Source of the DNA: Squalus acanthias | Taxonomy: Eukaryota | DNA length: 64,000 nucleotides | Assembly: GCA_030390025.1 (NCBI GenBank) | Contig: CM059432.1 | Coordinates: 2,294,001-2,358,000, forward strand | Direction: 5' to 3' | Shown: positions 3,636-50,705 of the stretch, piece by piece | Layout of the letters: the number at the start of each line of letters is the position of its first letter | Numbering within the stretch: the first letter of the stretch is position 1 | Position numbers and translations under genes: made by a program | The notes under the pieces: generated by a model | Seen by the model: the letters and a program-made list of their open reading frames with translations, nothing else | What the model was told of the DNA's origin: nothing | Databases searched by the model: none

Positions 3636-3661
3636 ACTTAGGTTCCCAGCCCCCTAACAAA

Positions 3662-6062: not shown

Positions 6063-6940
6063 GGGGGAAAAATTCAGTTGGCTTGCGCCTCCCGTTAGCG
6101 CCTTAAGAGGGCGCTAATGGGGCGCAAAGCAACTAGTGCCCGTGTGCGGAGATGTTTGCGCCGCTCACGAAATTAACGAGACATTTTGCGGCGGCGCTAA
6201 ACACTACCACCACGATCTCCTGCGCCGGCAGATTGTGACGTTAGTCAAGTGCGCAATGCCCCGGTAGCGCCCCGGACCGGCTATTGAGTGGCGCCCCCAG
6301 CCTTATCACCTGCCGCTAGCAACGACAGGTTGAGGGGAGCGTTTTGCAGTCAGGAAGGGACTGGGGGAGTGCTATTTAAAGGCGACCGCTTCCTGCCTTT
6401 TTTTGTTGGTGACATTTTTGCACCACACATTCTGAGAGAGAGAGAGAGAGACTTCTGGAGAGATTCAATGCTGTGTGAAGGAGTTTTGGGTACTGAGCAG
6501 CACTTTGCAGGTTCATTTTGATTTGCCCTTCATTGTATCGATTTAGAAGAGACTGAGCTCTTTCCCTGGTTCTCTCTATTGTTCTTTCCAGCAGATTTGA
6601 TGCACAGGTCTCTCCAGGCCGAGATTCAAGGCTGCAATGAGCAGGATGTGGATGGAGAGCAAGATCAACCCTCCCCTTTAAGAACTGGCCGGCGCCATTG
6701 AGTCTGTGTTCAATTGCTGACTGACATCACATGAGCTTCGCCAGCGCTCTGAGGTAGCGCCTCGCTCCTCGGCCTTTGCGCCTTAAGACAGGTGTGAAGC
6801 ACCTGATTTAGCGCTCCAATCACCTCCAGGGGTGATAAAAGCCAAGTTTGCAGTCGGAGGCGATAATTAGCGCCAGGCGCTAATCTTTGCGCCCGGCCGA
6901 TAATTGCGCCCCAAATGGGGCGAAACTGAATTTTTCCCCC
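6063..6940 (+). mobile_element. Non-autonomous Harbinger internal-deletion derivative (~0.88 kb)
   Basis: TIR GGGGGAAAAATTCAGTT ... AACTGAATTTTTCCCCC; flanks ATA/TTA; both ends homologous to the autonomous elements. Confidence 0.9.
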
Positions 6941-7277
6941 TTAATATTTAGAAAGTGGTAATATTTAGAAAGTTGTAATAATTTGAATAGTTGTAATATT
7001 TAGAACGTTGTAATATTTAAGAAAGTTGTAATATTTTGAAAAATTGTAATATTTAGAAAGTTGTAATATTTAAGAAAGTTGTAATATTTTGAAAAATTGT
7101 AATATTTAGAAAGTTGTAATATTTAAGAAAGTTGTAATATTTTGAAAAATTGTAATATTTAGAAAGTTGTAATATTTAAGAAAGTTGTAATATTTTGAAA
7201 AATTGTAATATTTAGAAAGTTGTAATATTTAGGAAAGTTGTAATATTTTGAAAGTAGTAATATTTTGAAAAGTTGTA

Positions 7278-7540
7278 GGCCTAAAAATTCAGTTGCTTTG
7301 CACCTCCCGTTAGTGCTAATGGGGTGAAAAGCAACGAGCACCCAGGCACGGTGCCGCCAACGCCTCCCGCGAAATTCAACGGAGGTTAGCGGCGGCGGTA
7401 ACTGCTAGCGCCCCACGGCGCTGTGCCACCGGCGATGATTCACTCGCAGCACCTCAAGAGTGAGCCGGGGCACTTCCAGTAGCACCCCACTTCCCTCTTG
7501 GGGCACTACCAATGAATTTCGGCCGCAGGGGTGCAAATGT
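7278..7540. mobile_element. Harbinger MITE with degenerate left TIR, internally deleted and right-truncated
   Basis: GGCCTAAAAATTCAGTTG follows AAAGTTGTA; interior matches the 5081 fragment. Confidence 0.75.
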
Positions 7541-7678
7541 TTTGAAAGTTGCAATATTTTGAAAAATTGTAATATTTTGAAAAGTTGTAATATTTAGAAG
7601 GTTGTAATATTTAGAAAATTGTAATATATTGAAAAGTTGTAATAGTTAGAAAGTTGTAATATTTTGAAAATAGTATTA

Positions 7679-8103
7679 CAGGAAACTTTCGTTTATCCGG
7701 CACCCAAATATCCGGAATTCTCGCTTAACCGGCAAAAATCATCCTCCGAAAACTCCTCTCAAATAACCGGCAATGTTGCCGAGTCGCAGTCGAGTCTTCG
7801 CGAACGCCGAGTGCTCCGAAAAATCCTCTCAAATAACCGGCAATGTTGCCGATCCCGAGTCCGAGTCAGAGTCCGAGAACGCCGATTTAGTCAGTAGGGG
7901 TACTTTTCAAAAGTGCCACTACTCGGCCTCCTGGCGCTGTCGCAAGTCCGAAACATTGCAGTAGCAGGAGTAGATTCTCCTGTGCTGCTTGGAGTCTCTT
8001 TGTTAAAAATAGCCTCGGTAGATATAACTCTCTGTTATCCGGTACTTTCGATAAACCGGCACCACGCCGGTCCCGTCGATGCCGGATAAACGAAAGTTTC
8101 CTG
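7679..8103. mobile_element. Tc1/mariner (pogo/Tigger-like) MITE, 425 bp
   Basis: Perfect 24-bp TIR CAGGAAACTTTCGTTTATCCGGCA, TA on both sides, subterminal TATCCGG/AACCGG repeats. Confidence 0.9.
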
Positions 8104-8941
8104 TATTTAGAAAATTGTAATATTTTGAAAAGTTGTAATAGTTAGCAAGTTTTAATATTTTGAAAAGTTGTAATATATTTAAAGTGGTAAGATTTAGAAA
8201 GTTGTAATATTTTGAAAAGTTGTAATATTTAGAAAGTTGTAATATTTAGAAAGTTGTAATAATTTGAAAGTTGAAATTTTGAAAGTGGTAAAATTTAGAA
8301 AAGTAGTAATTTTTAGAGAATTGTAATATTTGGAAAGTTTTAAATTGTGAAAAGTTGAAATTTTTAGAAAGTTGTAATATTTAGAAAGTCATATTTTGAA
8401 AAGTTGTAATTTTTAGAAAGTTGTAATATTTAGAAAGTTGTAATATTTAGCAAGTTGCAATATTTTGAAAAGTTGTAATATTTTGAAAATGTCATATTTT
8501 GAAAGTTGCAATATTTTGAAAGTGGTAATATTTAGAAATGTTGTAATATTTAGAAAGTTGTGATATTTTAAGAATGTCATATTTTGAAAAGTTGTAATAT
8601 TTTGAAAGTTGTAATATTTAAAAAGATTTAATATTTAGAAAGTTGTAATATTTTGCAAGTTGTAATATTTTGAAAAGTTGTAATATTTTGAAAGTTGTAA
8701 TATTTAAAAAGATTTAATATTTAGAAAGTTGTAATATTTTGCAAGTGGTAATATTTTGAAAAGTTGTAATATTTTGAAAGTTGTAATATTTAGAAATTCG
8801 TAATGTTTTGAAAAGTTGTAATATTTTGAAAGTTGTAATATTTAGAAATTTGTAATGTTTTGAAAAGTTGTAATATTTTGAAAGTTGTAATATTTAGAAA
8901 TTTGTAATATTTTGAAAAGTTTTAATATTTTGAAAGTAGTA

Positions 8942-9834
8942 GGGGGAGAAATTCAGTATCGACCCATTTGGAGCGCAATTATCGGCCGGGCGCAAAGATT
9001 AGCGCCTGGCGCTAATTATCACCACCGACTGCAAACTTGACTTTTATCGCCCCTGGAGGTGATTGGAGCGCTAAATCAGGCGCTTCACACCTGTCTCAAG
9101 GCGCAAAGGCCGAGGAGCGAGGCGCTACCTCAGAGCGCTGGCGAAGCTCATGTTATGTCAGTCAGTAATGGAACACACACACAATGGCACGGGCCAGTTC
9201 TTAAAGGGGATGGTTAATCTTGCTTTCCATCCACATCCTGCTCATTGCAGCCTTGAATCTCGGCCTGGAGAGACCTGCACATCAAATCTGCTGGAAAGAA
9301 CAATGGAGAGTACCAGGCAAAGAGCTCAGAGTGCAGCCCCCACAGTCTCTTCTAAATCGATACAAGGAATGGCAAATCAAAATGAACCTGCAAAGTGCTG
9401 CTCAGTACCCAAACCTCCTTCACACAATGTTGAATCTCTCCAGAAGTCTCTCTCTTTCTCTCTCAGAATGCGTAGTTCAAAAATGGCACCAACAATAAAC
9501 GGCAGGAAGCGGTCAACTTTAAATAGCGCTCCCCCTTTCCCTTCATGACTGGAGAACGCTCCCCTCAACCTGTCGTTGCTAGCGTCAGGCGGTAAGGCAG
9601 GGGGCGCCACTCAATATCCGCTCCGGGGCGATACCGGGGCGTGGTGCACTCGACTGACGTCACGATCTGCCGGCGCAGGAGATCGTGGCGGTAGTGTTTA
9701 GCGCCACTGCAAAATGTCTAGTTAATTTTGCGAGCGGCGCAAACTTCGCCGCGCCTGGGCGCTAGATGCTTTGCGCCCCATTAGCGCCCTCTTAAGGCGC
9801 TAACGGGAGGCGCAACCAACTGAATTTTTCCCCC
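8942..9834 (-). mobile_element. Non-autonomous Harbinger derivative (~0.89 kb)
   Basis: TIRs GGGGGAGAAATTCAG / CTGAATTTTTCCCCC; TSD GTA; retains the first codons of the Myb gene (MESTRQRAQ). Confidence 0.92.
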
Positions 9835-10603
9835 GTAATATTTAGAAAGTGGTAATATTTTGAAAAGTGGTAACATTTAGAAAGTTGTAATATTTTGCAA
9901 GTGGCAATATTTTGAAAAGTTGCAATATTTAGAAAGTTGTAATATTTTGAAAGTTGCAATATTTTGAAAATTTGTAATATTTAGCAAGTTGCAATATTTT
10001 GAAAAGTTGTAATATTTTGAAAGTTGTAATATTTTGAAAGTTGGAATATTTTGGAAATGTGTAATATTTAGCAAGTTGCAATATTTTGAAAAGTTGTAAT
10101 ATTTTGAAAGTTGTAATATTTAGAAATTTGTAATATTTTGACAGTTGCAATATTTTGAACATTTGTAATATTTAGCAAGTTGCAATATTTTGAAAAGTTT
10201 TAATATTTTGAAAGTAGTAATATTTAGAAAGTGGTAATATTTTGAAAAGTGGTAACATTTAGAAAGTTGTAATATTTTGCAAGTGGCAATATTTTGAAAA
10301 GTTGCAATATTTAGAAAGTTGTAATATTTAGCAAGTTGCAATATTTTGAAAAGTTGTAATATTTTGAAAATGTCATATTTTGGAAGTTGTAATATTTTGA
10401 AAGTGGTAATATTTAGAAATGTTGTAATATTTAGAAAGTTGTAATATTTAGAAAGTTGTAATTTTTAGAAATCGGTAATATATTGAAAAGTTGTAATATT
10501 TTGAAAGTAGTAATATTTTGAAAAGTTGTAATATTTTGAAAGTGGTAATATATTGAAAAGTTGTAACATTTAGAAATGTTGTAATATTTTGAAAAGTTGT
10601 AAT

Positions 10604-11692
10604 AAAAACACAGCATCAGTTTCCACATGTACGCTGATGACACCCAGCTCTACCTCACTACTTCTTCTCTCGACCCCTCCACGGTGTCTAAGTTGTCAGA
10701 CTGCTTGTCCGACATACAGTTCTGGATGAGCAAAAATTTTCTCCAATTAAATATTGGGAAAACCGAAGCCATTTTTTTGGTCCCCGCCACAAACTCTGTT
10801 CCCTAGCCACATAGAAACATAAAAACATAGAAGATAGGAGCAGGAGTAGGCCATTCGGCCCCTTGAGCCTGCTCCGCCATTCAATGCGATCATGGCTGAT
10901 CATCCAAATTCAGTACCCTGTCCCTGCTTTCTCCCCATATCCCTTGGTCCCTTTAGCCTTAAGAAATATATCTAACTCCTTCTTGAATATATTTAATGAA
11001 TTGGCCTCAACTGCCTTCTGTGGTAGAGAATTCCACAGGTTCACCACTCTCTGTGTGAAGAAGTTCCTCCTCATCTCAGTCCTAAATGGCTTACCCCTTA
11101 TCCTTAGACTGTGACCTCTGGTTCTGGACTCCCCCACCATCGGGAACATCCTTCCTGCATCCACTGACTCCATCCCTCTCCCTAACATCTGTCTGAGGCT
11201 GAACCACACTGTTCGCAACCAAGTCCCATTCGCCCATCTCCCCTGTGCTCGCTGACCTACATTGGCTCCCGGTTAAGCAGCGCCTCGATTTCAAAATTCT
11301 CATCCTTGTTTTCAAATCCCTCCATGACCTCGCCCCTTCCTATCTCTGTAACCTCCTCCAGCCCCACAACCCCCCGAGATATCTGCGCTCCTCTAATTCT
11401 GCCCTCTTGAGCATCCCTGATTATAATCGCTCCACCATTGGTGGCCGTGCCTTCTGTTGCCTGGGCCCTAAGCTCTGGAATTCCCTGCCGAAACCTGTCC
11501 ACCTCGCTACCTCTCTTTCCTCCTTTAAGACGCTCCTTAAAACCTACCTCTTTGACCAGGCTTTTGATCACCTGCCATAATTTATCCTTATGTGGATCGG
11601 TGTCAAATTTTTTGTCTTAAAATACTCCTGTGCAGCACCTTGGGACGTTTTACTACGTTAAAGGCGCTATATAAATACAAGTTGTTGTTGTT
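10604..11692 (+). mobile_element. 5'-truncated L2-clade LINE with nested CR1 and an internal deletion
   Basis: YADDTQLY and LHWLPVKQRLDFKIL motifs; tail AAAGGCGCTATATAAATACAA(GTT)n; ~250 bp missing at 11220 relative to the 17889 copy. Confidence 0.88.
10811..11160 (-). mobile_element. CR1 3' fragment nested in L2
   Basis: (ATAGAAAC) tail, RRNFFTQRVVNLWNSLP; CCAC on both sides. Confidence 0.9.
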
Positions 11693-12861
11693 ATTTAGAA
11701 AGTTGTAATATTTAGAAAGTTGTAATATTTTGAAAGTAGTAATATTTTGAAAGTGCTAATATTTTGAAAATGGTAATATTTAGAAAGTTGAAATACTTTG
11801 AAAAGCTGTAATATTTAGAATGTTGTAATATTTAGAATGTTGTAATATTTTGAAAAGTTGTAATATTTAGAAAGTTGAAATATTTTGAAAAGCTGTAATA
11901 TTTAGAATGTTGTAATATTTAGAATGTTGTAATATTTTGAAAAGTTGTAATATTTAGAAAGTTGTAATATTTTGAAAAGTTGTAATATTTTGAAAGTGCT
12001 AATATTTTGAAAGTGGTAATATTTAGAAAGTTGTAATATTTTGAAAAGTTGTAATATTTTGCAAGTGGTAATATTTTGAAAGTTGTAATATTTAGAAAGT
12101 TGTAATATTTAGAAAAATTGTAATATTTAGAAAGTTGTAATATTTAGAAAGTTGTAATATTTTGAAAGTTGTAATATTTAGAACTTTGTAATATTTTGAA
12201 AAGTTTTAACATTTAGAAAGTGGTAAGATTTAGAAAGTTGTAATACTTTGAAAAGTTTTAATATTTAGAAAGTTGTAATATTTTCAAAGTTGTAATATTT
12301 AGAATGTTGTAATATTTAGAATGTTGTAATATTTTGAAAAGTTGTAATATTTAGAAAGTTGTAATATTTTGAACAGTGGTAAGATTTAGAAAGTTGTAAT
12401 ATTTTGAAAAGTTGTAATATTTTGAAAGTTGTAACATTTAGAAAGTGGTAAGATTTAGAAAGTTGTAATACTTTGAAAAGTTTTAATATTTAGAAAGTTG
12501 TAATATTTTCAAGTGGTAATATTTTGAAAAGTTGTAATATTTGGAAAGTTGTAATATTTTGAAAGTGGTAAGATGTCGAAAGTTGATATATTTTGAAAAG
12601 TAATAGTTTGAAAAGTTTTAATATTTAGAAAGTTGTAATATTTTGCAAAGTGCTAACATTTAGAAAGGGGTAATATCTTGAAAGTTGTAGGGGTAAAAAT
12701 TCAGTTGGTTGCGCCTCCCATTAGCGCCTTAAATGGGCGCTAATGGGGCGTTAAGGCGCTAACGCCCGGGCGCAGCGCTGTTTGCGCCGCTCGAGAACTT
12801 AACTTGAGATTGTGCGGCGGCGCTAAAACTTACCGCTGCGACCACCTGCGCGCGCAGATTG

Positions 12862-13006
12862 TGACGTCAGTCCGTGGTGCAACGCCCTTGGGGCGCCCCG
12901 GAGCGGAAATTGAGTGGCGCCCCCTGCCTTACCGCCTGGCGCTTCCAACGACCGGAAGACTGGAACGTTATCAATCGGTCTGGGGCTGGGGGGGGCGCTA
13001 TTTAAA
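12862..13006 (+). promoter_or_regulatory. Putative transposase promoter (CRE TGACGTCA + TATTTAAA)
   Basis: TGACGTCA at 12862-12869 and TATTTAAA at 12999-13006; both motifs recur in the divergent relatives. Confidence 0.4.
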
Positions 13007-13201
13007 GGGGGCCTCTTCCTGTCTTTTTCTGTGGTCGACATTTATGCACCACTCGTTCTGAGAGAGAGAGAGAGATTCGGAGAGAGAGAGAGAGAGACTT
13101 CTACATTGACTCAACGCTTTGTGAGGTAGTTTTGCCTAGTTCATCCTAACTTTGCTGCTACTTTCGTTGCTGTACCTCATTACTTTTCTGGCAAAGAGAA
13201 G

Positions 13202-14362
13202 ATGGGGGCTGCAATGATTGGGGGCGTCGTCCTGCTCCAGCTCAATCGGAGCAGAGTGAGACGCAGACAGAGAGTGGCAATGATGGCCAGACGGAGGAGG
13301 CCCATCAGGCGCATGTACAGGAGAGCTTACCCTCCCAGGGTATATCGTGAACAGCTCTCCTACATCCACATGTCCGAGGAGCTGTGTTTGCGAAGGCTGC
13401 GATTCAGCAAGGAGGTGGTCACTGAGCTCTGCCACCTGCTGCAGCCAGATCTGCAGCCTCAGCTGAGGTCCAGGACGTCTCTGTCGGTGGCAGTGAAGGT
13501 CACAGTGGCCTTGAACTTCTACGCCACTGGCTCATTCCAAGCTGCTGTTGGGGACCTCGCCAATATCTCCCAGTTTGCGGTGCATCGCTGCATCCGGCAG
13601 GTCACCAATGCCCTCTTCACAAGGAGACGAGACTTCATCTCCTTCCCTATGACCCCAGACAAGCAGCATGACCGTGCTATGGGCTTTGCGAGGGTAGCGG
13701 GCTTCCCCATGGTGCAGGGCGCCATTGACTGCACGCATGTGGCTTTGCGTGCTCCGCGAGAGAATGCAGAGGAGTTCCGGAACAGAAAGGGGTTCCATTC
13801 CTTGAATGTGCAGTTGGTCTGTGACCACAGACAGGTGATTCTCGCTGTCAATGCCCACTATCCGGGCAGCTGCCACGATGCTTTCATCCTGTGCCAGAGT
13901 ACTGTGGCAGAAATTTTCGAGGCACCGCATCAGCCAGTTGGTTGGCTTCTGGGGGACAAGGGGTACGCATTGAGCACCTGGCTGATGACACCGCTCCGTG
14001 CGCCAAACACCCCTGCTGAGCTGCGGTACCAGGAAAGCCAACAAGCAACGAGGAACATTATTGAGCGCACAATCGGCGTGCTCAAACAACGATTCCGCTG
14101 TCTGGACCATTCCGGAGGAGCCCTGCAGTACTCGCCTGAGCAAGTTTCCAAATTCGTAGTGGTGTGCTGCATGTTGCACAACATGGCAATCCTCAGGACG
14201 CAGCCAATGCCACCAGGCCTTGCAGCACCACAAGAGGAGGAGGAGGAAGAGGAGGAACAGGCCGAGGACGATGATCAGCAGCAGCACCAAGGCAGGAGGG
14301 CGGCCCACAATGGTCAAACTGCAAGGGCCGTCCGTCAACGACTAATAGCAAGCCGCTTCTAG
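13202..14362 (+). CDS. Harbinger DDE transposase (HARBI1-like family), 386 aa
   Basis: [46 protein letters not shown] and CCMLHN motifs; open frame. Confidence 0.95.
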   Translation: MGAAMIGGVVLLQLNRSRVRRRQRVAMMARRRRPIRRMYRRAYPPRVYREQLSYIHMSEELCLRRLRFSKEVVTELCHLLQPDLQPQLRSRTSLSVAVKVTVALNFYATGSFQAAVGDLANISQFAVHRCIRQVTNALFTRRRDFISFPMTPDKQHDRAMGFARVAGFPMVQGAIDCTHVALRAPRENAEEFRNRKGFHSLNVQLVCDHRQVILAVNAHYPGSCHDAFILCQSTVAEIFEAPHQPVGWLLGDKGYALSTWLMTPLRAPNTPAELRYQESQQATRNIIERTIGVLKQRFRCLDHSGGALQYSPEQVSKFVVVCCMLHNMAILRTQPMPPGLAAPQEEEEEEEEQAEDDDQQQHQGRRAAHNGQTARAVRQRLIASRF

Positions 14363-14656
14363 GGCCCCTGCCAGTGCTACAAACACGAATCAACCCAGCA
14401 CGCAACCCCTAAGCCGGCCAAGGCACCAATAATTCCAACCACCAGCCATGTATATTTTGAATACAGAAACTTATTTATTGTACAAACTCTGTGTGTGTCA
14501 ATTCCTCATGACAAACTCATAGAAATAAACACAAAAAAACAGTCAATAACATAACTGGTTCTCACAACCTGGAGATAATGTCCAAAACACTAAACAAAAG
14601 TTGGGCCATGAACCTCGGCCTTTAATAAAAAAATGACCAGCATTTTGGCACACCTC

Positions 14657-40274: not shown

Positions 40275-43185
40275 AAGAACATAAGAACATAAGAACATAA
40301 GAAATAGGAGCAGGAGTAGGCCAATCGGCCCCTCGAGCCTGCTCCGCCATTCAATAAGATCATGGCTGATCTGATCCTAACCGCCAATCTACTATCTATC
40401 ACAGAACCATCTCCTGCATCTAACAGAATTGCACACACGAAATAGGAGCAGAATCAGGCTACACAGTCCCTGGGCCCGCTCCACTACCCACAGGGCCATG
40501 ACCGATCCGAACCTAGACTCATGTCCAAATTCCTGCCCGCTCCCCGTAACCCTTAATGCCCTTTACTTCTAGGAAACTGTCTATTTCTGTTTTAAATTTA
40601 ATTAATGTTGTAGCTTCTACAGCTTTTTGTGGCAGCATATTCCATGGACCTACCACCCTCTGAGTGAAGTAGTTCCTCCTCATCTCAGTTTTGAAAGAGC
40701 AGCCCCTTATTCTAAGACTATGTCCCCTAGTTCTCGTCTCACCCGTCATCGGGAACATCCTCCCCGCATCCACCCGATCCAACCCCTTCACAATCTTATA
40801 TGTTTCAATAAGATCGCCTCTCATTCTTCTGAACTCCAATGAGTAGAGTCCCAATCTACCCAACCTCTCCTCATATGACCACCCCCTCATCCCCGGGATT
40901 AACCGAGTGAACCTTTTTTGCACTGCTTCGAGAGCAAGGATGTCTTTCCTTAAGTAAGGACACCAAAACTGTATGCAGTATTCCAGGTGCGGTCTCACCA
41001 ATACCTTGTACAACTGAAGCAATACCTCCCTATTTTTATATTCTATCCCCCTAGCAATGAAAGCCAACATTCCATTTGCCTTCTTAATCACTTGCTGCAC
41101 CTGCATACTAACCTTTTGAGTTTCGTGCACCAGGACCCCCAGATCCCTTTGCACTTCAGTACTCTCCAGTTTCTTGCCATTAAGATAATAAATTGCTCTA
41201 GGATTTTTCCTGCCAAAGTGCATCACCTCACACTTTCCAGTGTTGTATTCCATCTGCCAAATCTCTGCCCACTTACTTAGCCTGTCTATGTCCCCTTGCA
41301 GGTTTTTTATGTCCTCCTCACTCACTACTTTCCCTCCCATCTTTGTATCATCTGCAAATTTTGATATGTTACACTTGGTCCCTTCCTCCAAATCGTTAAT
41401 ATAGATTGTGAAGAGTTGGGGACCCAGCACTGACCCCTGTGGAACACCACTAGTTACTGATTGCCAGTCTGAGAATGAACCATTTATCCCAACTCTTTGC
41501 TTTCTGTTAGATAGCCAATCCTCTATCCATGCCAGAATATTACCCCCAATCCCGTGATTTTTTACCTTAAGCAATAATCTTTTGTGTGGCACCTTGTCAA
41601 ATGCCTTTTGGAAGTCTAAATACACTACGTCCACTGGTTCCCCTTTATCCACTCTATATGTTACTTCCTCAAAGAACTCCAGCAAATTTGTCAAACATGA
41701 CTTCCCCTTCGTAAAACCATGCTGACTTTGTCCTATTAAATTATGATTATCCAAATGTCCTGTTACTGTTTCCTTAATAATGGACTCCAAAATTTTACCT
41801 ACCACAGATGTTAGGCTAACCGGTCTATAGTTACCAGCCTTCTGTCTACTGCCCTTTTTAAATAAGGGTGTTACATTAGCAGTTTTCCAGTCTGCCGGGA
41901 CCTTAGCGGAATCCAGGGAGTTTTGAAAAATTATTACCAATGCATCTACAATCCCTACCGCCACTTCCTTCAAGACTCTAGGATGTAAGCCATCAGGTCC
42001 AGGTGATTTATCCGCCTTGAGTCCCATTATTTTACCGAGTACCACTTCCTTAGTGATTTTGATCGTGTTTAGCTCCTCTCCCCCTATAGCCCCCTGTTTG
42101 TCCAGTGTTGGGATATTCTTAGTGTCCTCTACTGTAAAGACTGATACAAAATATTCATTCAGTGTTTTTGCCATCTCCATATTTCCCACCATTAATTTCC
42201 CGGTCTCATCCTCTAAGGGACCAACATTTACTTTAGCCACCCTTTTTCTTTTTATATAACTATAAAAACTCTTACTATCTGTTTTTATATTTTTTGCTAA
42301 TTTACTTTCATAATCTATCTTCCCTTTCTTAATCAATCTTTTTGTTATTTTTTGCTGCCTTTTAAAGTTTTCCCAATCCTCTGTCCTCCCACTAGATTTC
42401 GCTACCTTATATGCCCTTGTTTTTAGTCGAATACTATCCTTAATTTCTTTACTTAGCCACGGATGACTGTCCTTTCTTTTACACCCTTTTCTTTTCAGTG
42501 GAATATATTTTTTTTGGAAGTTGTAAAATAACTCCTTGAATGTACACCACTGATCATGTGTCGTCTTACCCTTTAATCTATTTTCCCAATCCACTCTACT
42601 CAATTCCGCTCGCATACCTTCATAGTCTCCTTTATTCAAGCTTAGCACGCTTGTTTGAGATCCAACCTTCTCACCCTCTAATTGAATATGGAATTCAACC
42701 ATGTTATGGTCACTCATTCCAAGGGGATCCTTTACTAGGACATTTTTAATTAATCCTGTCTCGTTACACAGGACCAGATCTAAGGTTGCTTGCCCCCTGG
42801 TCGGTTCAGTTACATACTGCTCAAGAAACCCATCCCTAATACACTCAATGAACTCATCCTCAAGGCAGCCCTGCCCCATTTGATTTGTCCAATTAATATG
42901 ATAGTTAAAATCCCCCATAATTATAGATGTTCCCTTATTACATGCCTCAACTATTTCCTGATTGATACTCCGTCCAATAGAGTTGCAACTGTTCGGAGGC
43001 CTATAGACTACGCCCACTAATGTTTTTTTCCCCTTATTATTCCTTATCTCCACCCAAACTGTTTCATTATCATGATTTTTTGACCCAATATCATTACTCT
43101 GTATTACAGTGATTCCTTCCTTTATTAACATAGCCACCCCACCTCCCCTTCCTTCCTGCCTGTCCTTCCTGATCGTTAAATAACC
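40275..43185 (-). mobile_element. 5'-truncated young CR1 LINE
   Basis: (TAAGAACA)n tail; candidate TSD TGGTAAGA at 40271-40278 and 43186-43193. Confidence 0.94.
40519..43185 (-). CDS. CR1 ORF2 (partial APE + RT), open but lacking its start
   Basis: 872-aa ORF in the track; the frame continues upstream as GYLTIRKDRQEGRGGGV to the truncation point. Confidence 0.88.
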   Translation of the reverse strand, partial: GYLTIRKDRQEGRGGGVAMLIKEGITVIQSNDIGSKNHDNETVWVEIRNNKGKKTLVGVVYRPPNSCNSIGRSINQEIVEACNKGTSIIMGDFNYHINWTNQMGQGCLEDEFIECIRDGFLEQYVTEPTRGQATLDLVLCNETGLIKNVLVKDPLGMSDHNMVEFHIQLEGEKVGSQTSVLSLNKGDYEGMRAELSRVDWENRLKGKTTHDQWCTFKELFYNFQKKYIPLKRKGCKRKDSHPWLSKEIKDSIRLKTRAYKVAKSSGRTEDWENFKRQQKITKRLIKKGKIDYESKLAKNIKTDSKSFYSYIKRKRVAKVNVGPLEDETGKLMVGNMEMAKTLNEYFVSVFTVEDTKNIPTLDKQGAIGGEELNTIKITKEVVLGKIMGLKADKSPGPDGLHPRVLKEVAVGIVDALVIIFQNSLDSAKVPADWKTANVTPLFKKGSRQKAGNYRPVSLTSVVGKILESIIKETVTGHLDNHNLIGQSQHGFTKGKSCLTNLLEFFEEVTYRVDKGEPVDVVYLDFQKAFDKVPHKRLLLKVKNHGIGGNILAWIEDWLSNRKQRVGINGSFSDWQSVTSGVPQGSVLGPQLFTIYINDLEEGTKCNISKFADDTKMGGKVVSEEDIKNLQGDIDRLSKWAEIWQMEYNTGKCEVMHFGRKNPRAIYYLNGKKLESTEVQRDLGVLVHETQKVSMQVQQVIKKANGMLAFIARGIEYKNREVLLQLYKVLVRPHLEYCIQFWCPYLRKDILALEAVQKRFTRLIPGMRGWSYEERLGRLGLYSLEFRRMRGDLIETYKIVKGLDRVDAGRMFPMTGETRTRGHSLRIRGCSFKTEMRRNYFTQRVVGPWNMLPQKAVEATTLIKFKTEIDSFLEVKGIKGYGERAGIWT

Positions 43186-43846
43186 TGGTAAGATTTAGAA
43201 AGTTGTAATATTTTGAAAAGTTGTAATATTTAGAAAGTTGTAATATTTAGAAAAGATGTAATATTTAGAAAGTTGTAATATTTTGAAAAGTGGTAAGATT
43301 TAGAAAGTTGCAATATTTTGAAAGTTGTAATATTTAGAAAAGTTGTAATATTTAGAAAGTTGTAATATTTTGAAAAGCGGTAAGATTTAGAAAGTTGCAA
43401 TATTTTGAAAGTTGTAATATTTAGAAAAGTTGTAATATTTAGAAAGTTGTAATATTTTGAAAATTGTAATATTTTGAAAAGTGGTAAGATTTAGAGGGGG
43501 GAAAATTTAGTATCGCCCCATTTGGGGCGCAATTATCGGCCGGGCGCAAAGATTAGCGCCTGGCGCTAATTATCGCTTCCGACTGCAAACTTGACTTTTA
43601 TCGCCCCTGGAGGTGATTGGAGCGCTAAATCAGGCGCTACACACCTGTCTTAAGGCGCAAAGGCCGAGGAGCGAGGCGCTACCTCAGAGCGCGGGCGCAG
43701 CACAGGTGCTGTCAGTTAGCAATGGAACACAGACACACTGGCGCCGGCCAGTTCTTAAAGGGGAGGCTTGATCTTGCTCTCCAGCTCATTGGAGCCTTGA
43801 ATCTCGGCCTGGAGAGACCTGTGCCTAAATCTTCCAGCCAAGGACT

Positions 43847-45593
43847 ATGGAGAGGGTGAGAGTACGAGCTCAGCGCTTCAGCGAGCGGGCCTTGGATGCT
43901 CTGGTTGGCGCGGTAGAGCGCAGAAGGTCTATACTCTTCCCTGAGAGTGGCAGGAGGCCTTTGCCGCACGATTACAGAAGAGTATGGAGGGAGGTGGCTC
44001 AGAGCGTCTCCTCCAGGAGCATGGTGCCCAGGACCCATACTCAATGTCGAAATAAGTTCAACGACCTCACTCGGGTCGTCAGGGTGAGTGGCTTTTTTTC
44101 AATACCTCACCATCACTCCATCTCAACCTCACTCTATGGCCAGAGGGTCTTAAAACCCCAATGCCCAACACTCATCCAACACCTATGGCCCTCTCATGAA
44201 ACACACACGTACAGTAAGGCTATTCACCTATGGGAGGCACATCAGGCAAGACCATGGCTGTATATTTACTCAGACGCCGTCCTTTTTCTTGCAGGCCAAG
44301 CTATCTCATAACAGGAGACAGCAGCAACGAATGGGTGGAGGGCGGCCTCAGCTGCAACCCCTCAGCGATCTTGAGGCGCGCGTCCACAGGATTGTGGCAA
44401 GCCGGGTGATCGGTCCCGTCGCCACTGGAGACGCCGACCCCGTTCTGGACAGTAATGGTAAGGTCATCACCTTTTTGTCCTCTCTCCTTCCACTTGTCCC
44501 TCACAACACCAGCCTTTGACACTTTCAATCCAACTTACTAAATCGCTCCAGTCCTTGCTCCCTTACTACCCCCCTGTCCTCACGCTAAAGCCACTCTTGT
44601 ACCTCCCTGCTTTCAGATGGTGATTCACCAGCTGAGGAGACGGGCCCTCAAGCTGCCAGTGGGAGTGAAGCTGCAGCCGAGGAGGAAGAGGAAGCCGGAG
44701 CATCAGTGCCACCCTCTCCCGAGGAAGCCCATGCCCACACTGGGAACACGCCTTCCCTGGAGGGGAGCAGGGGGGAAGGGTCTGATGAGGGTGAAGCTCC
44801 AGGACCCAGCGGGCTGCAGCAACGCGATGGGGGTAGGGAAGCTCGGGGGCCTTCTCCCCGGAGGGAGTGTATGCCAGCGAGTCCTGCTGCACTGGACGCA
44901 GAGGAGGAGCAGCTGATCGCTGAAATGAACACCCAGGCGGTGGACATGCACACTGAGCTCATGGGTGCAGTGGGAAGGGTGCCCGAATGCATTGAATCAC
45001 TGGCAAGGAGTGTGGAGCACTTCGCTGTAGCACAGGCTCATGCCACGCTAAAGCTTAGTGCTGCAATTCAGTCACTGGCTGCCATGAACCCATCTCAGAC
45101 TGCTCTCATGTAGACTCAGATTGAGGCCACGCAAGCACTGACTGCTGCCATCCTCGATGGTTCAGACACATTTCCCTGGGGCTCTCACCGCGCCGCAGCA
45201 GGCCAGCAATCTGTGCTCTAGCAGATTGCTCCGGATGCTGAAGTGCTGCCCCGTGGGAGTGCCAGTGTGTCGGTCGAGCAGGGAGTTGCTGTCCTCTCTC
45301 AAGATGACAGCATTCCTGCTGCCACCACTGTCACTTCTCCATTGCACTTGCCACCAGCTGTAGGACAGACTGCTGCCGCCCATGCAGAGTTGGTGCAGTC
45401 TGCAGCCGGGCCCTCCAGGCCCAGAGCTGGTCGAGGACGTCCTTCAAGGGCATCTGCAGTCTCAGGTTCTGACAATCAGCAGCCTTCCACCAGCCTTGCT
45501 GCAGCCACTGGGGTCCCATTACGGAGGAGCAGTAGGGTGGGAAGGGGGGAAGTGCGCAAGGGTAGGAGATCACCCTCGAAGGGCAAAAAGTAG
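43847..45593 (+). pseudogene. Myb/SANT-like gene of copy 3
   Basis: Exons 43847-44083, 44295-44457 and 44617-45593; exons 1 and 2 are the same size as in copy 2; in-frame TAG at 45111 and 45219. Confidence 0.85.
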
Positions 45594-45903
45594 GAGGTGT
45601 GACAAAATGTTGGTCATTTTTTTTTAAAGGCCGAGGTTCGTGGTCAAACTTTTGTTTAGTGTTTTGGACATTATCTCCAGGTTGTGAGAACCAGTTATGT
45701 TAATGACTGTGTTTTTGTGTTTCTTTCTATTAGTTTGTCATGAGGAAATGACACACACAGAGTTTGTGAAATAAATAAGTTTTTGTATTCAAAATGTACA
45801 TGTTTGGTCTTTGGAATCATTGCTGCCTTGGCCGGCTTAGGGGTTGCGGGTTGGTTTCATTCATGTTGTTCTCAATAGCAGGAGCCATTTCCTCAGCAGG
45901 GGC

Positions 45904-47064
45904 CTAGACGCGGCTTGCTATCAGCCGTTGACGGACGGCCCTTCCCGTTTCTACATTGTGGGCCTCCCTCCCGCCTTGGTGCTGCTGATGATCATCCTTC
46001 TCATCTTCCTCCTCCTCTTCCTCCTCCTCCTCTGGTGGTGCTCCAAGGCCTGGTGGCATTGGCTGGGTCCTGAGGATTGCCAGGTTATGCAGCATGCAGC
46101 ACACAACAACGAAGAGGGAGACTCACTCAGGCGAGTACTGCAGGGCTCCTCCAGAATGGTCCAAACAGCGGAACCGTTGCTTGAGCATGCCGATTGTGTG
46201 CTCAACAATGTTCTTGGTGGCGAGATGGCTCTGGTTGTACCGCAGCTCAGCAGGGGTGTTGGGCGTGCGGAGCGGTGTCATCAGCCAGGTGCTCAGTGGA
46301 TATCCCTTGTCCCCGAGAAGTCAACCACCTGGGTGATGTGGTGCCTGGAAAAGTTCAGCCACAGTAGTGTGGCGCAGGATGTATGCATCATTGCTGCTGC
46401 CAGGATAGCAGGCATTGACAGCGAGTATCAGCTGTCTGTGGTCACAGACCAACTGCACGTTTAAGGAATGGAACCCCTTTCGGTTGCGGAAATCCTCTGC
46501 ATTCTCATACGGAGCATGCAAAGCCACATGCGTGCAGTCAATGGTGCCCTGCACCATGGGGAAGCCCGCTATCCTCACAAAGCCCATAGCGCGTTCATGC
46601 TGCTTGGCCGGGGTCATGGGGAAAGAGATGAACTCTCATCTCCTTTTATAGAGGACATTTGTGACCTGACGGATGCAGCAATGGACCGCGAACTGGGAGA
46701 TATTGGCGATGTCCCCAGTAGCTGACTGAAATTAACCGGTGGCATAAAAGTTCAGAGCCACTGTGACCTTCACTGCCACCGACAGAGACGCCCTGCTCCT
46801 CAGTTGAGGCTGCAGATCTGGCTGCAGCAGGTGGCAGAGCTCAGTGACCACCTCCTTGCTGAAGCGCAGCCTTCGCAAACACTGCTCCTCAGACATATGA
46901 ATGTAGGAGAATTGTTGGCGAAATACCCTGGGAGGGTAAGGTCTCCTGTACAGAGGCCTGTTGGCGCTCCTCCGTCTGGCCATGCTTGCCACTCTCTCTC
47001 TGTGTCTCTGTGGCCTCCGATTCTGCTGTCGCAGGACGACGCCCCCAATTAGTGCAGCCCCCAC
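45904..47064 (-). pseudogene. Harbinger transposase of copy 3
   Basis: Same 1161-nt span as copy 1; GTG in place of ATG; in-frame stops near 46732, 46636, 46321 and 46123. Confidence 0.88.
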
Positions 47065-47689
47065 ATTCTCTTGGCAATCAAAGTAATGTAGGTCAAAAAC
47101 CAAAGTACCTCTTTCTCTCTCTCAAAATCTCTCTCTCTCACTCAGAACGAGTGGTGCAAAAATGTCAACCACAGAGAAAGCCAGGAAGAGGCCCCCTTTA
47201 AATTGCGCCCCCCCAGCCCCACAGCGACTGGGGAGCGTTCCAGTCTACCTGTCGTTGGTTGCGCTAGGCGGAAAGGAGGGGGGCGCCACTCAATTTCCGT
47301 TCCGGGGCACCCCAAGGGCGTTGTACGCTCGAATGACGTCAAGATCTGCGTGCGCAGGACATTGGGTCGGCATTGTTTAGCGCGCCGCAAAACGTCCGGT
47401 CAATTTCGCGAGAGGCGCAGATATCGCCGCGTCCGGGCGGGAGTTGCTTTGCGTCCCATTAGCGCCCACTTAAGGCACTAAAGGGAGGCGCAAACCAACT
47501 GAATTTTCCCCACGTAATGTTTTGAAAAGTTATAATATTTTGAAAGGTTTTAATATTTTGCAAGTGGTAATATTTAGAAAGTGGTAATATTTTGAGAAGT
47601 TGTAATATTTAGAAAGTTGTAATATTTAGAAAGTTGCAATATTTTGAAAGTGGTAATATTTTAAAAATGTAATATTTTGAAAAGTTGTA

Positions 47690-48582
47690 GGGGTAGAAAT
47701 TAGGACGCGCCCCATTTGGGGCGCAAATATCGTCTGGACGCAAATATTAGCGCCTGGCGCTAATTATCGGCACTGACAGGAAACTTCACTTTTACCGCCC
47801 CGGGAGGTGAGTGGAGCGCTAAATCAGGCGCTGCACACCTGTCTTAAGGCGCAAAGGCCAAGGAGTGAGGCGCTAACTCAGAGCGCTGATGAAGCTCATG
47901 TAATGTCAGTCAGCAATGAAACACACACACAATGGCACGGGCCAGTTCTTAAAGGGGATGGTTAATCTTGCTTTCCATCCACATCCTGTTCATTGCAGCC
48001 TTGAATCTTGGCCTGGAGAGACTTGCACATCAAATGTGCTGGAAAGAACAATGGAGAGTAACAGGCAAAGAGCTCAGAGTGCAGCTCCCACAGTCTCTGC
48101 TAAATCGATACAAGGAATGGCAAATCAAAATGAACCTGCAAAGTGCTGCTCAGTACCCAAAACTCCTTCCCACAACGTTGAATCTCTCCAGAAGTCTCTC
48201 CCTCTCTCTCTCAGAATGCGTAGTTCAAAAATGCCACCAACAATAAAAGACAGGAAGAGGCCCCCTTTAAATAGCGCCCCCCCCAGCCCCACAGCGATTG
48301 ATAGCGTTCCAGTTTTCTGGTCGTTGGATGCGCCAGGCGGTAAGGCAGGGGGCGCCACTCAATTTCCGCTCCGGGGCGCCACAAGGGCGTTGCACCATGG
48401 AATGACGTCACAATCTGCGCGCGCAGGTGGTCGCAGCGGTAAGTTTTAGCGCCGCCGCACAATCTCAAGTTAAGTTCTCGAGCGGCGCAAACATCGCTGC
48501 GCACGGGCGTTAGCGGCTTTGCGCCCCATTAGCGCCCTCTTAAGGCGCTAACGGGAGGCGCAACCAAGTGAATTTTTACCCC
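47690..48582 (-). mobile_element. Non-autonomous Harbinger with copy-1/2-type ends
   Basis: TIRs GGGGTAGAAATTAGG / AATTTTTACCCC; TSD GTA. Confidence 0.92.
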
Positions 48583-49429
48583 GTAATATTTTGAAAGTGG
48601 TAACATTTAGAAAGTTGTAATTTTTAGAAATTTGTAATATTTTGAAAATGTAATATTTTGAAAGGTAATATTTTGAAAAGTTGTAATATTTTGAAAATGT
48701 AATATTTTGAATGGTAATATTTTGAAAAGTTGCAATATTTTGAAAGTGGTAATATTTTAAAATTGTAATATTTTGAATAGTTGTAATATATTGAAAGATT
48801 TAATATTTAGAAAGTTGTAATATTTTGAAAAGTTTTACTATTATGAAAGTGGTAATATTTAGTAAGTTGTAATATTTTGAAAAGTTGTAATATTTTGAAA
48901 GTTGTAATATTTTAGAAAGTTGTAATATTTTGAAAAGTTGTAATATTTTGAAAGTTGTAATATTTAGTAAGTTGTAATATTTTGAAAATTGGTAAGATTT
49001 AGAAAGTGGTAATATTTTAAAAATGTAATATTTTGTAAAGTTGTAATATTTTGAAAGTTGTAATATTTAGAAAGATTTAATATTTTGAAACTGGTAATAT
49101 TTAGAAAGTTGTAATTTTTAAGATATGTAATGTTTTGAAAAGTTGTATTATTTTGAAAGTAGTAATATTTTGAAAAGTTTTAATATTTAGAAAGTGGTAA
49201 TATTTAGAAAGTTGTAATATTTTGCAAAGTTGTAATATTTTGAAAATGTAATATTTAGAAAGTTGTAATATTTTGAAAAGTTGTAATATTTTGAAAGTAG
49301 TAATATTTTGATAAGTTGTAATCTTTAGAAAGTTGTAATATTTTACAAGTGGCAATATTTTGAAAAGTTGCGATATTTAGAAAGTTGTAATATTTAGAAA
49401 GTTGTAATATTTTGAAAGTGGTTAGATTT

Positions 49430-49494
49430 CCTTGTCTTTTCTCTTTAGCATTCTAAATTTCTCTTCACCGGGACCCTCCCCCCACTTATTTAGT
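49430..49494 (-). other. Short non-satellite insert, possibly a CR1 ORF1/ORF2 junction remnant
   Basis: Minus strand reads ACTAAATAAGTGGGGGGAGGGTCCCGG, reminiscent of the end of CR1 ORF1. Confidence 0.3.
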
Positions 49495-49810
49495 ATATTT
49501 TGAAAGTAGTAATATTGTGAAAAGTTGTGATATTTAGAAAGTTGTAATATTTTGAAAAGTTGTAATATTTAGAAAGTTGTAATATTTTGAAAGTAGTAAT
49601 ATTTTGAAAAGTTGTAATATTTAGAAAGTTGTAATATTTTGAAAAGTTGTAATATTTTGAAAGTAGTAATATTTTGAAAAGTTGTAATATTTAGAAAGTT
49701 GTAACATTTTCAAAAAGTTACAACATTTTGAAAGCGGTAATATTTTGAAAAGTGGGATTATTTTGAAAATGTTTAATATTTTGAAAAGTTGCAACATTTT
49801 GAAAGTTGTA

Positions 49811-50705
49811 GGGGGAGAAATTCAGTATCGCCCCATTTGGGGCGCAATTATCGGCCGGGCGCAAAGATTAGCGCCTGGCACTAATTATCGCCACCGACTG
49901 CAAACTTGACTTTTATCGCCCCTGGAGGTGATTGCAGCGCTAAATCAGGCGCTTCACACCTGTCTTAAGGCGCAAAGGCCGAGGAGCGAGGCGCTACCTC
50001 AGAGCGCTGGCGAAGCTCATGTGATGTCAGTCAGCAATGGAACACACACACAATGGCACGGGCCAGTTCTTAAAGGGGATGGTTAATCTTGCTTTCCATC
50101 CACATCCTGCTCATTGCAGCCTTGAATCTCGGCCTGGAGAGACCTGCACATCAAATCTGCTGGAAAGAACAATGGAGAGTACCAGGCAAAGAGCTCAGAG
50201 TGATGCCCCCACAGTCTCTGCTAAATCGATACATGGAATGGCAAATCAAAATGAACCTGCAAAGTGCTGCTCAGTACCCAAAACTCCTTCACACAATGTT
50301 GAATTTCTCCAGAAGTCTCTCCCTCTCTCTCTCTCAGAATGCATAGTTCAAAAATGGCACAAACAATAAAAGGCAGGAAGCGGTCACCTTTAAATAGCGC
50401 TCCCCCTTTCCCTACATGACTGCAGAACGCTCCCCTCAACCTGTCGTTGCTAGCGTCAGGCGGTAAGGCAGGGGGTGCCACTCAATATCCGCTCCGGGGC
50501 GATACCGGGGCATTGCGCACTCGAGTGACGTCACGATCCGCCGGCGCAGGAGATCGTGGCGGTAGTGTTTAGCGCCGCCGCAAAATGTCTAGTTAATTTT
50601 GCGAGCGGCGCAAACTTCGCCGCGCCTGGGCGCTAGATGCTTTGCGCCCCATTAGCGCCCTCTTAAGGCGCTAACGGGAGGCGCAACCAACTGAATTTTT
50701 CCCCC
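49811..50705 (-). mobile_element. Non-autonomous Harbinger derivative (family of 8942)
   Basis: TIRs GGGGGAGAAATTCAG / CTGAATTTTTCCCCC; TSD GTA. Confidence 0.92.

What the first reader, a model, noticed from the sequence alone, without database searches (positions are those of the whole stretch)
6063..50705. Satellite-homing Harbinger system: insertions lock onto one register of the monomer with a non-canonical GTA TSD
Seen: reconstructed targets are AAAGTT-GTA-ATATTT (12690, 29052, 47690, 49811), AAAGTA-GTA-ATATTT (8942) and AAAGCT-ATA/TTA-ATATTT (6063), plus half-sites AAAGTT-GTA (7278) and GTA-ATGTTT (after 47513). That is 8 of 10 scorable events in one phase of a 17-18-mer, from several subfamilies and in both orientations. 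Exceptions are TTG (32250) and ATA (17074 family). The canonical TAA lies one base away in each monomer and is never used, while the same MITE outside the array uses GAACAC-TTA-GTTATA. Established (from recall): PIF/Harbinger usually duplicates TWA, and zebrafish Harbinger3_DR prefers a 15-bp AAACAC-CWG-GTCTTT site. Inference: the monomer is a symmetric AAA-N9-TTT target, so the array acts as a tandem landing pad or sink for a two-gene transposon and its parasites.
Basis: partly seen in the sequence, partly recalled or inferred. Interest (0 to 1): 0.85.

Follow-up and report, generated by a model that had tools for sequence, protein, structure and literature searches.

The report
Harbinger insertions phase-locked in a satellite
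A 17-18-bp tandem repeat found at one place in a shark-like genome has been hit about ten separate times by one family of cut-and-paste jumping genes, nearly always at the same base of the repeat unit, because that unit resembles the 15-bp landing motif the family prefers everywhere else.

Summary
The 17/18-bp satellite carries 10 independent insertions of one PIF/Harbinger family: two 99.5%-identical two-gene copies, one decayed copy and MITEs. Eight sit in one register (AAAGTT-GTA-ATATTT), in both orientations (P about 5e-9 against uniform phase). They were not amplified with the array, because flanks are no more alike than random satellite pairs. Exceptions, each counted once: E5a/b/c and E2/g99/g5082.

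The cause is ordinary. One hundred copies from another chromosome give a palindromic logo, TWARANWC-WWW-GWNTYTWA. This is the 15-bp preference published for zebrafish Harbinger3_DR, with a different centre. A matrix built from those sites puts 54-72% of the array's predicted insertions in the GTA register. It ranks the two exceptional registers (AGA, TTG) among the next best.

GTA is a rare duplication for the family (about 0.5% of ends), so the flanks set the cut position.

"Homing" and "sink" are overstated. The satellite is one 24-kb locus. Only 8 of 51,498 family ends lie in it.

The array is still about 24-fold enriched, and motif density predicts only 2.6-4.4-fold. That excess is unexplained.

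The parts
1..50810 (+). 17/18-bp satellite array (unit AAAGTTGTAATATTTWG, sometimes with an extra A), all in one orientation. It holds 19,353 bp of satellite in the window and continues about 5 kb upstream to C8:2,289,026.
6063..6940 (+). E1, 878-bp Harbinger MITE. Flanked by AAAGCT-ATA ... TTA-ATATTT, in the GTA register.
7278..7539 (+). E2, truncated E11-type MITE. Its left end is in the GTA register. Its right end was lost at an internal TAATTTTTT microhomology, the same junction as in 99-367 and 5082-5514.
8942..9834 (-). E3, 893-bp MITE with GTA/GTA.
12690..16924 (+). E4, 4,235-bp autonomous Harbinger with GTA/GTA and short terminal inverted repeats GGGGTARAAATT.
13130..14362 (+). E4 transposase open frame (385 aa from the first ATG). 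It matches DDE_Tnp_4 over the full profile.
   Evidence: (E = 5.5e-37)
16073..16585 (-). E4 Myb/SANT-like protein exon (Myb_DNA-bind_5).
   Evidence: (E = 5.8e-9)
17074..17405 (+). E5a, composite MITE with ATA/ATA in the AGA register and an internal stretch of reversed satellite. Copies E5b (19311-19677) and E5c (21350-21716) arose by segmental duplication.
29052..29790 (-). E6, 739-bp MITE of the E11 subfamily with GTA/GTA.
32250..36475 (+). E7, 4,226-bp autonomous copy, 99.5% identical to E4. It has TTG/TTG in a variant monomer AAAC-TTG-CAATATTT, two bases upstream of the usual register.
43496..47513 (-). E8, 4,018-bp decayed autonomous copy with a fragmented transposase frame, about 85% identical to E4. 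Its left junction follows AGA and its right junction is GTA-ATGTTT.
47690..48582 (-). E9, 893-bp older MITE with GTA/GTA.
49811..50705 (-). E10, 895-bp MITE with GTA/GTA.
57399..58159 (-). E11, 761-bp MITE outside the array with TTA/TTA in GAACAC-TTA-GTTATA.

Best explanation
A young, abundant PIF/Harbinger family (DDE_Tnp_4 transposase plus a Myb-like protein, with Tourist-like MITEs) chooses targets by a roughly 15-19-bp palindromic motif, TWARANWC-[3-bp duplication]-GWNTYTWA.

The strongest positions are A at -4 and T at +4, 10 bp apart. The staggered cuts fall at a fixed distance between the two half-sites, whatever the three central bases are.

The satellite monomer AAAGTT-GTA-ATATTT offers one moderately good copy of this motif every 17-18 bp. 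Independent insertions, spread over a long time, therefore land in the same register and duplicate GTA.

What is shown: the family assignment, the independence of the events, the logo, and its prediction of the registers. What is inferred: the protein-DNA mechanism, that is a symmetric transposase complex reading two half-sites on one face of the helix.
For: 1. Family. The E4 open frames match DDE_Tnp_4 (E = 5.5e-37, full profile) and Myb_DNA-bind_5 (E = 5.8e-9). The nearest proteins are shark and ray 'HARBI1' entries at 54-66% identity. The MITEs share both ends with E4.

2. Independence.
- E4 and E7 are 99.5% identical, but their flanks are 0.79 and 0.80 alike.
- E3 and E10 are 96.5% identical, with flanks 0.82 and 0.71 alike.
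- Random in-phase satellite pairs give 0.82 +/- 0.075 (n = 394).
- E3 and E10 each have a closer relative among the 77 fetched chromosome-C1 copies (97.1% and 97.9%) than each other.
- E4 and E7 have different duplications.

3. Logo. I fetched 100 copies from C1. Of these, 80 had both ends and 52 had a perfect 3-bp duplication. Counts: A(-4) 48 of 52, T(+4) 46 of 52, C(-1) 36 of 52, G(+1) 35 of 52, centre W-rich.

4. Prediction. A symmetrised matrix from those 52 sites, summed over about 1,118 real monomers, gives GTA 53.5%, AGA/TGA 31%, TTG 4.2% and TAA 1.6%. Rebuilt from the 40 sites that remain after removing 12 lying in one host repeat, it gives GTA 72%, AGA 15.5% and TTG 4%. The observed 8/1/1 is compatible (P = 0.08 at 0.535).

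5. Flanks dominate.
- GTA precedes only about 0.5% of family ends. That is 176 W-anchored matches among 51,498 ends, scaled by about 0.63 for the anchor.
- None of the 52 duplications is GTA or TAC.
- By eye, the listed GTA sites elsewhere again show T-W-A-R-A at -8 to -4.

6. Of 20 E4-type loci fetched, 10 were complete. Nine of these have perfect 3-bp duplications (TTT, TTT, TAA, TTA, ATA x3, AAA, TAA), and all 10 sites score 3.4-14.6.

7. Published background. Harbinger3_DR integrates into palindromic AAACACCWGGTCTTT (PMC3016246 passage). Vertebrate PIF/Harbinger elements have a 15-bp extended preference (PMC2836001 passage).
Against: - The satellite sites are only mediocre matches. They score 1.3-6.6, against a leave-one-out median of 7.2 for genomic sites.
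- Motif density predicts only 2.6-fold enrichment (mean 2^score) or up to 4.4-fold (share of sites scoring 1 or more) over local non-satellite DNA. About 24-fold is observed: 8 ends against 0.338 expected. The motif explains the register but not the whole excess.
- On the consensus dimer the AGA register scores as high as GTA (3.37 against 2.99), yet it was used once or twice.
- The matrix rests on 52 (or 40) old sites of one MITE subfamily from the first 32.5 Mb of one chromosome.
- E8's two junctions disagree.
Confidence: 0.85

Rival explanations
1. The GTA copies descend from one or a few insertions that were amplified together with the array by unequal exchange or segmental duplication.
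For: This does happen here. E5a/b/c are 88-98.6% identical, and their flanks align with them. E2, g99 and g5082 share one truncation junction.
Against: - For every pair of E1, E3, E4, E6, E7, E9 and E10, the flanks (0.63-0.89) are no more alike than random in-phase satellite pairs (0.82 +/- 0.075).
- The elements belong to different subfamilies and lie in both orientations.
- E3 and E10 each have closer relatives among the 77 fetched C1 copies than each other.
- E4 and E7 have different duplications.
Confidence: 0.03
2. The array is a true hot spot beyond its motif content. Phased, reiterated sub-optimal sites would capture the Myb-transposase complex by avidity, or the local chromatin or AT-rich, bendable DNA would favour integration. 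This adds to the best explanation and does not replace it.
For: - Observed enrichment is about 24-fold genome-wide (P = 3e-9). Against 38 kb of local non-satellite flank, 8 of 9 ends lie in the satellite (P = 0.003). The matrix predicts only 2.6-4.4-fold.
- Insertions span ages from about 85% to 99.5% identity, so the targeting recurred.
- Insertion flanks genome-wide are slightly AT-richer than background (0.43 against 0.48).
- An earlier scan note reports a second satellite in this genome hit repeatedly at one position (e1-7790025). I did not check it.
Against: - The matrix is crude, and the map from score to insertion rate is unknown.
- The window was chosen because it looked unusual.
- The 5 kb of array upstream of the window carries no family end.
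Confidence: 0.3
3. The excess reflects local hopping from resident copies, or passive accumulation in a transposon-rich, low-recombination region.
For: The array also holds LINE/SINE-like and Tc1-like insertions. Two autonomous copies lie 20 kb apart.
Against: - E4 and E7 are as similar to copies on other chromosomes (99.5-99.7%) as to each other (99.5%).
- E3 and E10 are closer to C1 copies than to each other.
- The adjacent 38 kb of non-satellite DNA holds 1 matching end against 8 in 24.4 kb of satellite.
Confidence: 0.1
4. A dedicated satellite-homing lineage, whose proteins have evolved to recognise this monomer.
For: There are eight in-register events from several subfamilies.
Against: - Only 8 of 51,498 ends lie in the array, and the satellite is single-locus.
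- The same near-identical autonomous element inserts elsewhere into better-scoring, non-satellite sites.
- The monomer is a below-median match to the family motif.
Confidence: 0.02

Closest known systems
Harbinger3_DR of zebrafish (reconstructed; Sinzelle et al. 2008, seen only as cited in passages of PMC3016246 and PMC2836001; the paper itself is not held)
   Same: It is a two-gene vertebrate Harbinger with a 3-bp duplication. Its 15-bp palindromic target AAACAC-CWG-GTCTTT has flanks (A-A-A-N-N-C / G-N-N-T-T-T) that coincide with the logo found here, A-R-A-N-W-C / G-W-N-T-Y-T.
   Different: - The central triplet here is W-rich and loosely constrained (TAT, ATA, TTA, AAA, TTT and others), not CWG.
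- The family here is natural and very young, with many near-identical copies.
- The transposase here is 54-66% identical to its nearest listed relatives, which are shark and ray proteins. It was not compared with the zebrafish protein.
PIF / Ping-Pong / mPing of plants
   Same: Same superfamily. It also has an extended palindromic target preference around a 3-bp duplication and Tourist-like MITE derivatives (PMC2836001 passage).
   Different: The plant preference is 9 bp and centred on TTA/TAA. Here it is 15-19 bp, and TWA is not required (4 of 52).
Site-specific elements of tandem repeats (R1/R2 in rDNA; Pokey piggyBac in 28S rDNA; names recalled, not from a call)
   Same: Repeated insertion at one fixed position of a tandemly repeated unit.
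   Different: In those families most or all copies reside in the repeat. Here 8 of 51,498 ends do. The register follows from a general motif, not from dedicated recognition.
   Same: A 54-bp satellite interrupted at one monomer position by three Harbinger insertions. The follow-up attributed this to the known target motif.
   Different: It concerns a different satellite with fewer events. I did not examine that locus.

Membership tests
PIF/Harbinger superfamily | DDE transposase of the DDE_Tnp_4 / Plant_tran type | tested here: met
   PF13359, E = 5.5e-37, profile 1-158 of 158; PF04827, E = 2.1e-11. The frame is open in both E4 and E7.
PIF/Harbinger superfamily | Second, separate gene for a Myb/SANT-like DNA-binding protein | tested here: met
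   PF13873 Myb_DNA-bind_5, E = 5.8e-9, on the opposite strand (16073-16585). The full exon structure was not resolved.
PIF/Harbinger superfamily | 3-bp target-site duplication | tested here: met
   52 of 80 two-ended MITE copies and 9 of 10 complete autonomous copies have perfect 3-bp duplications. In the array so do E3, E4, E5, E6, E7, E9 and E10.
PIF/Harbinger superfamily | Short terminal inverted repeats | tested here: met
   The ends GGGGNANAAATTNAG match over about 12-16 bp in E4, E10 and E11. This is shorter than the 25-50 bp quoted as usual in PMC9179366.
PIF/Harbinger superfamily | Extended palindromic target preference (15 bp in vertebrates) | tested here: met
   Logo from 52 sites, robust to removing 12 sites that lie in one host repeat.
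PIF/Harbinger superfamily | TWA (TTA/TAA) as the duplicated triplet | tested here: not met
   4 of 52 duplications are TTA or TAA. TAT and ATA dominate at 26 of 52. This is a usual but not defining feature; Harbinger3_DR uses CWG.
Tourist-like MITEs of this element | Non-coding derivatives that share both termini with the autonomous element | tested here: met
   E1, E3, E9 and E10 align to about 370-440 bp at each end of E4 and E7 at 76-91% identity.
Site-specific (homing) repeat-targeting elements | The bulk of family copies reside in the target repeat | tested here: not met
   8 of 51,498 matching ends lie in the array. The satellite occurs at one locus.

The most novel reading that the evidence does not exclude
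The array is more than a passive string of motif copies. About 1,100 phased, sub-optimal half-site pairs may capture the Myb-transposase complex cooperatively. That would give roughly 5-9 times more insertions than motif content predicts. Short satellites that resemble a transposon's target would then be general integration traps in this genome. A second satellite noted by the scan behaves alike.
Probability: 0.2. Interest if true: 0.6.

Novelty: new member of a known kind. Interest (0 to 1): 0.35.

Why it matters
It is a clean natural experiment on how a vertebrate Harbinger picks its target. A tandem array presents the same imperfect motif more than a thousand times, and the register of ten independent hits can be read directly. 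It shows that the flanking half-sites, chiefly A at -4 and T at +4, fix where the cuts fall, and the duplicated triplet does not. It also gives a target logo for a very young, probably still mobile Harbinger family in a cartilaginous-fish-like genome. One survey could not detect Harbinger in its only cartilaginous fish, the elephant shark (PMC9179366 passages). For annotation the lesson is practical: phase-locked insertions in a satellite need no homing mechanism. The unexplained excess over motif density is the only part that could lead to something new.

Tried and rejected
- A phase histogram by pattern (exact GTAATATTT, then 0-18 bases, then the terminal repeat) found only 6 sites genome-wide and only E7 in the window. 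The monomer before each other insertion happens to carry a variant. It was useless as a histogram, but it led to the finding that the satellite is single-locus.
- Co-amplification was tested by flank identity and rejected.
- Local hopping was tested by asking whether array copies are each other's nearest relatives. They are not.
- Broad AT-richness of insertion flanks is real but small (0.43 against 0.48), too small to explain the excess.
- I looked by eye for a resemblance between the monomer and the element's subterminal sequence, as a possible Myb-binding decoy. I saw nothing convincing and ran no test.
The autonomous-copy sample is therefore the 20 loci. Of these, 10 are complete, 7 have the left end only, and 3 have no recognisable left end.
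- Sinzelle et al. 2008 (PMC2290759) is not held.
- Literature searches for Harbinger or DNA-transposon insertion at a fixed satellite-monomer position listed nothing directly on the point, judging by titles and abstract openings only. One search matched 87 papers and the other 101, with 15 listed from each.
- The search of earlier findings 'near' returned nothing.


Full report
**Setting.** The window is C8:2,294,001-2,358,000 of a 3.7-Gb eukaryotic assembly. Positions 1-50,810 hold a 17/18-bp satellite (unit AAAGTTGTAATATTTWG), all in one orientation and broken by many insertions. The exact 15-bp core occurs 534 times forward and 16 times reverse in the whole genome. The reversed-pattern controls give 16 and 21. 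Of the forward matches, 394 are in the window and 124 are in the 5 kb just upstream. The satellite is therefore a single locus of about 24.4 kb of repeat.

**The elements.** A terminal motif GGGGNANAAATTNAGT marks a family of insertions.
- E4 (12690-16924) and E7 (32250-36475) are 99.5% identical over about 4.2 kb.
- E4 encodes an open DDE_Tnp_4 transposase (E = 5.5e-37) and, on the other strand, a Myb_DNA-bind_5 protein (E = 5.8e-9).
- E7 differs by one residue in each protein and is also open.
- E8 (43496-47513) is an older copy, about 85% identical, with a fragmented transposase.
- E1, E3, E9 and E10 (about 890 bp) and E6 and E11 (about 750 bp) are MITEs that share both ends with the autonomous element.
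- The nearest proteins are 'putative nuclease HARBI1' entries of sharks and rays at 54-66% identity.

**Checking the observation.** All quoted junctions are present.
- GTA/GTA between AAAGTT (AAAGTA in E3) and ATATTT flanks E3, E4, E6, E9 and E10.
- E1 sits in the same register of a variant monomer (ATA/TTA).
- E2 keeps only its left junction (GTA).
- E8 keeps GTA on the right but follows AGA on the left.
- E7 duplicated TTG two bases upstream, in a variant monomer AAAC-TTG-CAATATTT.
- E5 duplicated ATA in the inter-monomer (AGA) register.

That is 8 of 10 independent events in one of about 17.5 registers (P = 4.6e-9), or 6 of 8 if only fully intact events are counted (P = 8.8e-7). Both orientations occur in the shared register. 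Insertions of other element types in the same array sit at other monomer positions.

**Independent events or amplification?** Amplification does occur. E5a/b/c are segmental copies. E2, g99 and g5082 share one truncation junction at an internal TAATTTTTT microhomology. I counted each group once.

For the rest, 150-bp flanks of every pair are 0.63-0.89 identical. That is no better than 394 random in-phase satellite pairs (0.82 +/- 0.075). The elements themselves reach 96.5% (E3/E10) and 99.5% (E4/E7). E3 and E10 each have a closer relative among the 77 fetched copies on chromosome C1 (97.1% and 97.9%) than each other. E4 and E7 are as close to copies on other chromosomes (99.5-99.7%) as to each other, and they carry different duplications. 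Identities to the family range from about 85-87% (E8, E9) to 99.5% (E4, E7), so the array was hit repeatedly over a long time.

**What the family does elsewhere.** The exact 20-nt end of the E3/E10 type occurs 10,442 times. The degenerate end occurs 51,498 times, against 147 for the control.

I fetched the first 100 places on C1. Of these, 80 had a recognisable right end and 52 a perfect 3-bp duplication. The duplicated triplets were varied and W-rich:
- TAT 17, ATA 9;
- AAA, TTA and TTT 3 each;
- 12 other triplets once or twice each (14 sites);
- TTA plus TAA only 4 of 52;
- GTA or TAC 0 of 52.

The flanks give a palindromic logo:
- left side: T(-8), W(-7), A(-6), R(-5), A(-4) in 48 of 52, N, W, C(-1) in 36 of 52;
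- right side: G(+1) in 35 of 52, W, N, T(+4) in 46 of 52, Y, T, W, A.

The flanks match the published zebrafish Harbinger3_DR target AAACAC-CWG-GTCTTT (passage in PMC3016246). They also fit the statement that vertebrate PIF/Harbinger elements have a 15-bp extended preference (passage in PMC2836001).

**Does the logo explain the register?**
- On the consensus 35-bp dimer, a symmetrised matrix from the 52 sites makes five registers positive: AGA 3.37, GTA 2.99 and 1.02, TTA 1.30 and TTG 1.12. All other registers, including TAA, are negative.
- Summed as 2^score over about 1,118 real monomers, the GTA register holds 53.5% of the predicted weight. AGA/TGA holds 31%, TTG 4.2% and TAA 1.6%.
- 19 of the 100 left flanks lie in one host repeat (CATAGAGT-type). 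I therefore rebuilt the matrix from the 40 sites outside it: GTA 72%, AGA 15.5%, TTG 4%.
- The observed 8/1/1 fits (P = 0.08 under 0.535).

All three registers used are among the best predicted, and the unused TAA register is predicted to be poor.

**GTA itself is disfavoured.** It precedes only about 0.5% of family ends. That is 176 W-anchored matches, scaled by the roughly 63% of sites with W at -8, out of 51,498. Three of the 176 are in this array. By eye, the GTA sites listed elsewhere again carry T-W-A-R-A at -8 to -4. The flanks, not the triplet, set the cut position.

Of the 20 near-identical autonomous-copy loci fetched from other chromosomes, 10 were complete. Nine of these have perfect 3-bp duplications (TTT, TTT, TAA, TTA, ATA x3, AAA, TAA), and all 10 sites score 3.4-14.6. 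E4 and E7 score 3.9 and 4.6.

**Landing pad, sink or homing?**
- Eight matching ends lie in 24.4 kb of satellite, where 0.338 are expected from the genome mean of 13.9 per Mb. That is about 24-fold (Poisson P = 3e-9).
- Against 38 kb of adjacent non-satellite DNA, 8 of 9 ends are in the satellite (P = 0.003). The array is a real local hot spot.
- It holds only 8 of 51,498 ends, so it is not a meaningful sink, and the family is not specialised for it.
- Motif content predicts only 2.6-fold enrichment (mean 2^score; the bootstrap interval for the background mean is 0.53-0.94 against 1.87 for the satellite). Counting sites that score 1 or more gives up to 4.4-fold.
- The remaining 5-9-fold is unexplained. 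Local hopping is not supported. The AT-richness of insertion flanks is small (0.43 against 0.48).

**Comparison and novelty.** By every defining feature tested, the element is a member of PIF/Harbinger. Those features are the transposase, the Myb-like gene, the 3-bp duplication, short terminal repeats and the extended palindromic target. TWA is not kept, but TWA is not universal in the superfamily.

The behaviour resembles site-specific elements of tandem repeats only superficially, and the membership test for such elements fails. I did not examine that locus.

Two literature searches for a fixed-register DNA-transposon insertion in a satellite showed nothing directly on the point among the 15 papers each listed, by titles and abstract openings only. 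That is weak evidence of absence.

**Verdict.** This is a well-documented, mechanistically ordinary instance of a known property. It has one open quantitative residue, the excess over motif density.

Noticed in passing
window 12690-16924 and 32250-36475; loci L104-L123: The autonomous element is very young and abundant. All 40 scored matches to E4's 1,233-nt transposase gene are about 100% identical. They lie on 14 contigs, out of 1,865 first-look candidates. The complete copies fetched are 99.5-99.7% identical to E4, and both genes are open in E4 and E7. The family has probably been mobile recently. One survey did not detect Harbinger in the elephant shark (PMC9179366 passages). Earlier scan note e1-7807214 says much the same.
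   Followed up: partly
window 17074-17405, 19311-19677, 21350-21716: E5 is a composite: 46 bp of one element end, then 59-94 bp of satellite in reversed orientation, then part of an E11-type MITE. The whole is bracketed by an ATA duplication. It looks like two neighbouring element ends that moved together with the satellite between them and re-inserted inverted. It was then copied three times, along with a neighbouring 643-1,087-bp insertion that begins AAAACACAGCATCA.
   Followed up: partly
loci L008, L025, L026, L039, L047, L052, L074, L084, L091, L098 and others: 19 of 100 genomic MITE copies sit in a host repeat made of CATAGAGT-like octamers, in both orientations and at the same ATA. This is the best-scoring target seen (14.6), so it is a second repeated sequence that acts as a recurrent target.
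   Followed up: partly
L114, L115, L116 (C10:133.89-133.93 Mb): Three autonomous copies about 17 kb apart have identical flanks (ATAGAGTC-ATA-GAGTCATA). This is either a tandem segmental duplication carrying the element or three hits in copies of the octamer repeat.
   Followed up: no
window 7671-8103: A 433-bp MITE of another kind, with ends CAGGAAACTTTCGTTTATCCGG and an apparent TA duplication (Tc1/mariner-like by recall). It is inserted at a different monomer position.
   Followed up: no
window 481-4697, 26468-28011, 40272-43192: Three insertions share a start like (TAAGAACA)n-TAAGAAATAGGAGCAGGAGTAGGCC. They are presumably one retroelement family and entered the array at three different monomer positions.
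   Followed up: no
window 99-367, 5082-5514, 7278-7539: Three MITE fragments end at the same internal point. There the element's TAATTTTTT meets the satellite's TAATATTTT, which suggests a microhomology-mediated deletion later copied with the array.
   Followed up: partly
window 15403-15579 and 34955-35130; 16074-16190 and 35625-35741: E4 and E7 contain an 87-bp and a 54-bp tandem duplication inside or next to the long minus-strand open frame (14657-15799), which has no Pfam match.
   Followed up: no
window 53331-53619: A GC-rich 33-bp tandem repeat of about 7 copies (CCCTCCGACAGTGCGGCGCTCCCTCAGTACTGC) lies outside the array.
   Followed up: no
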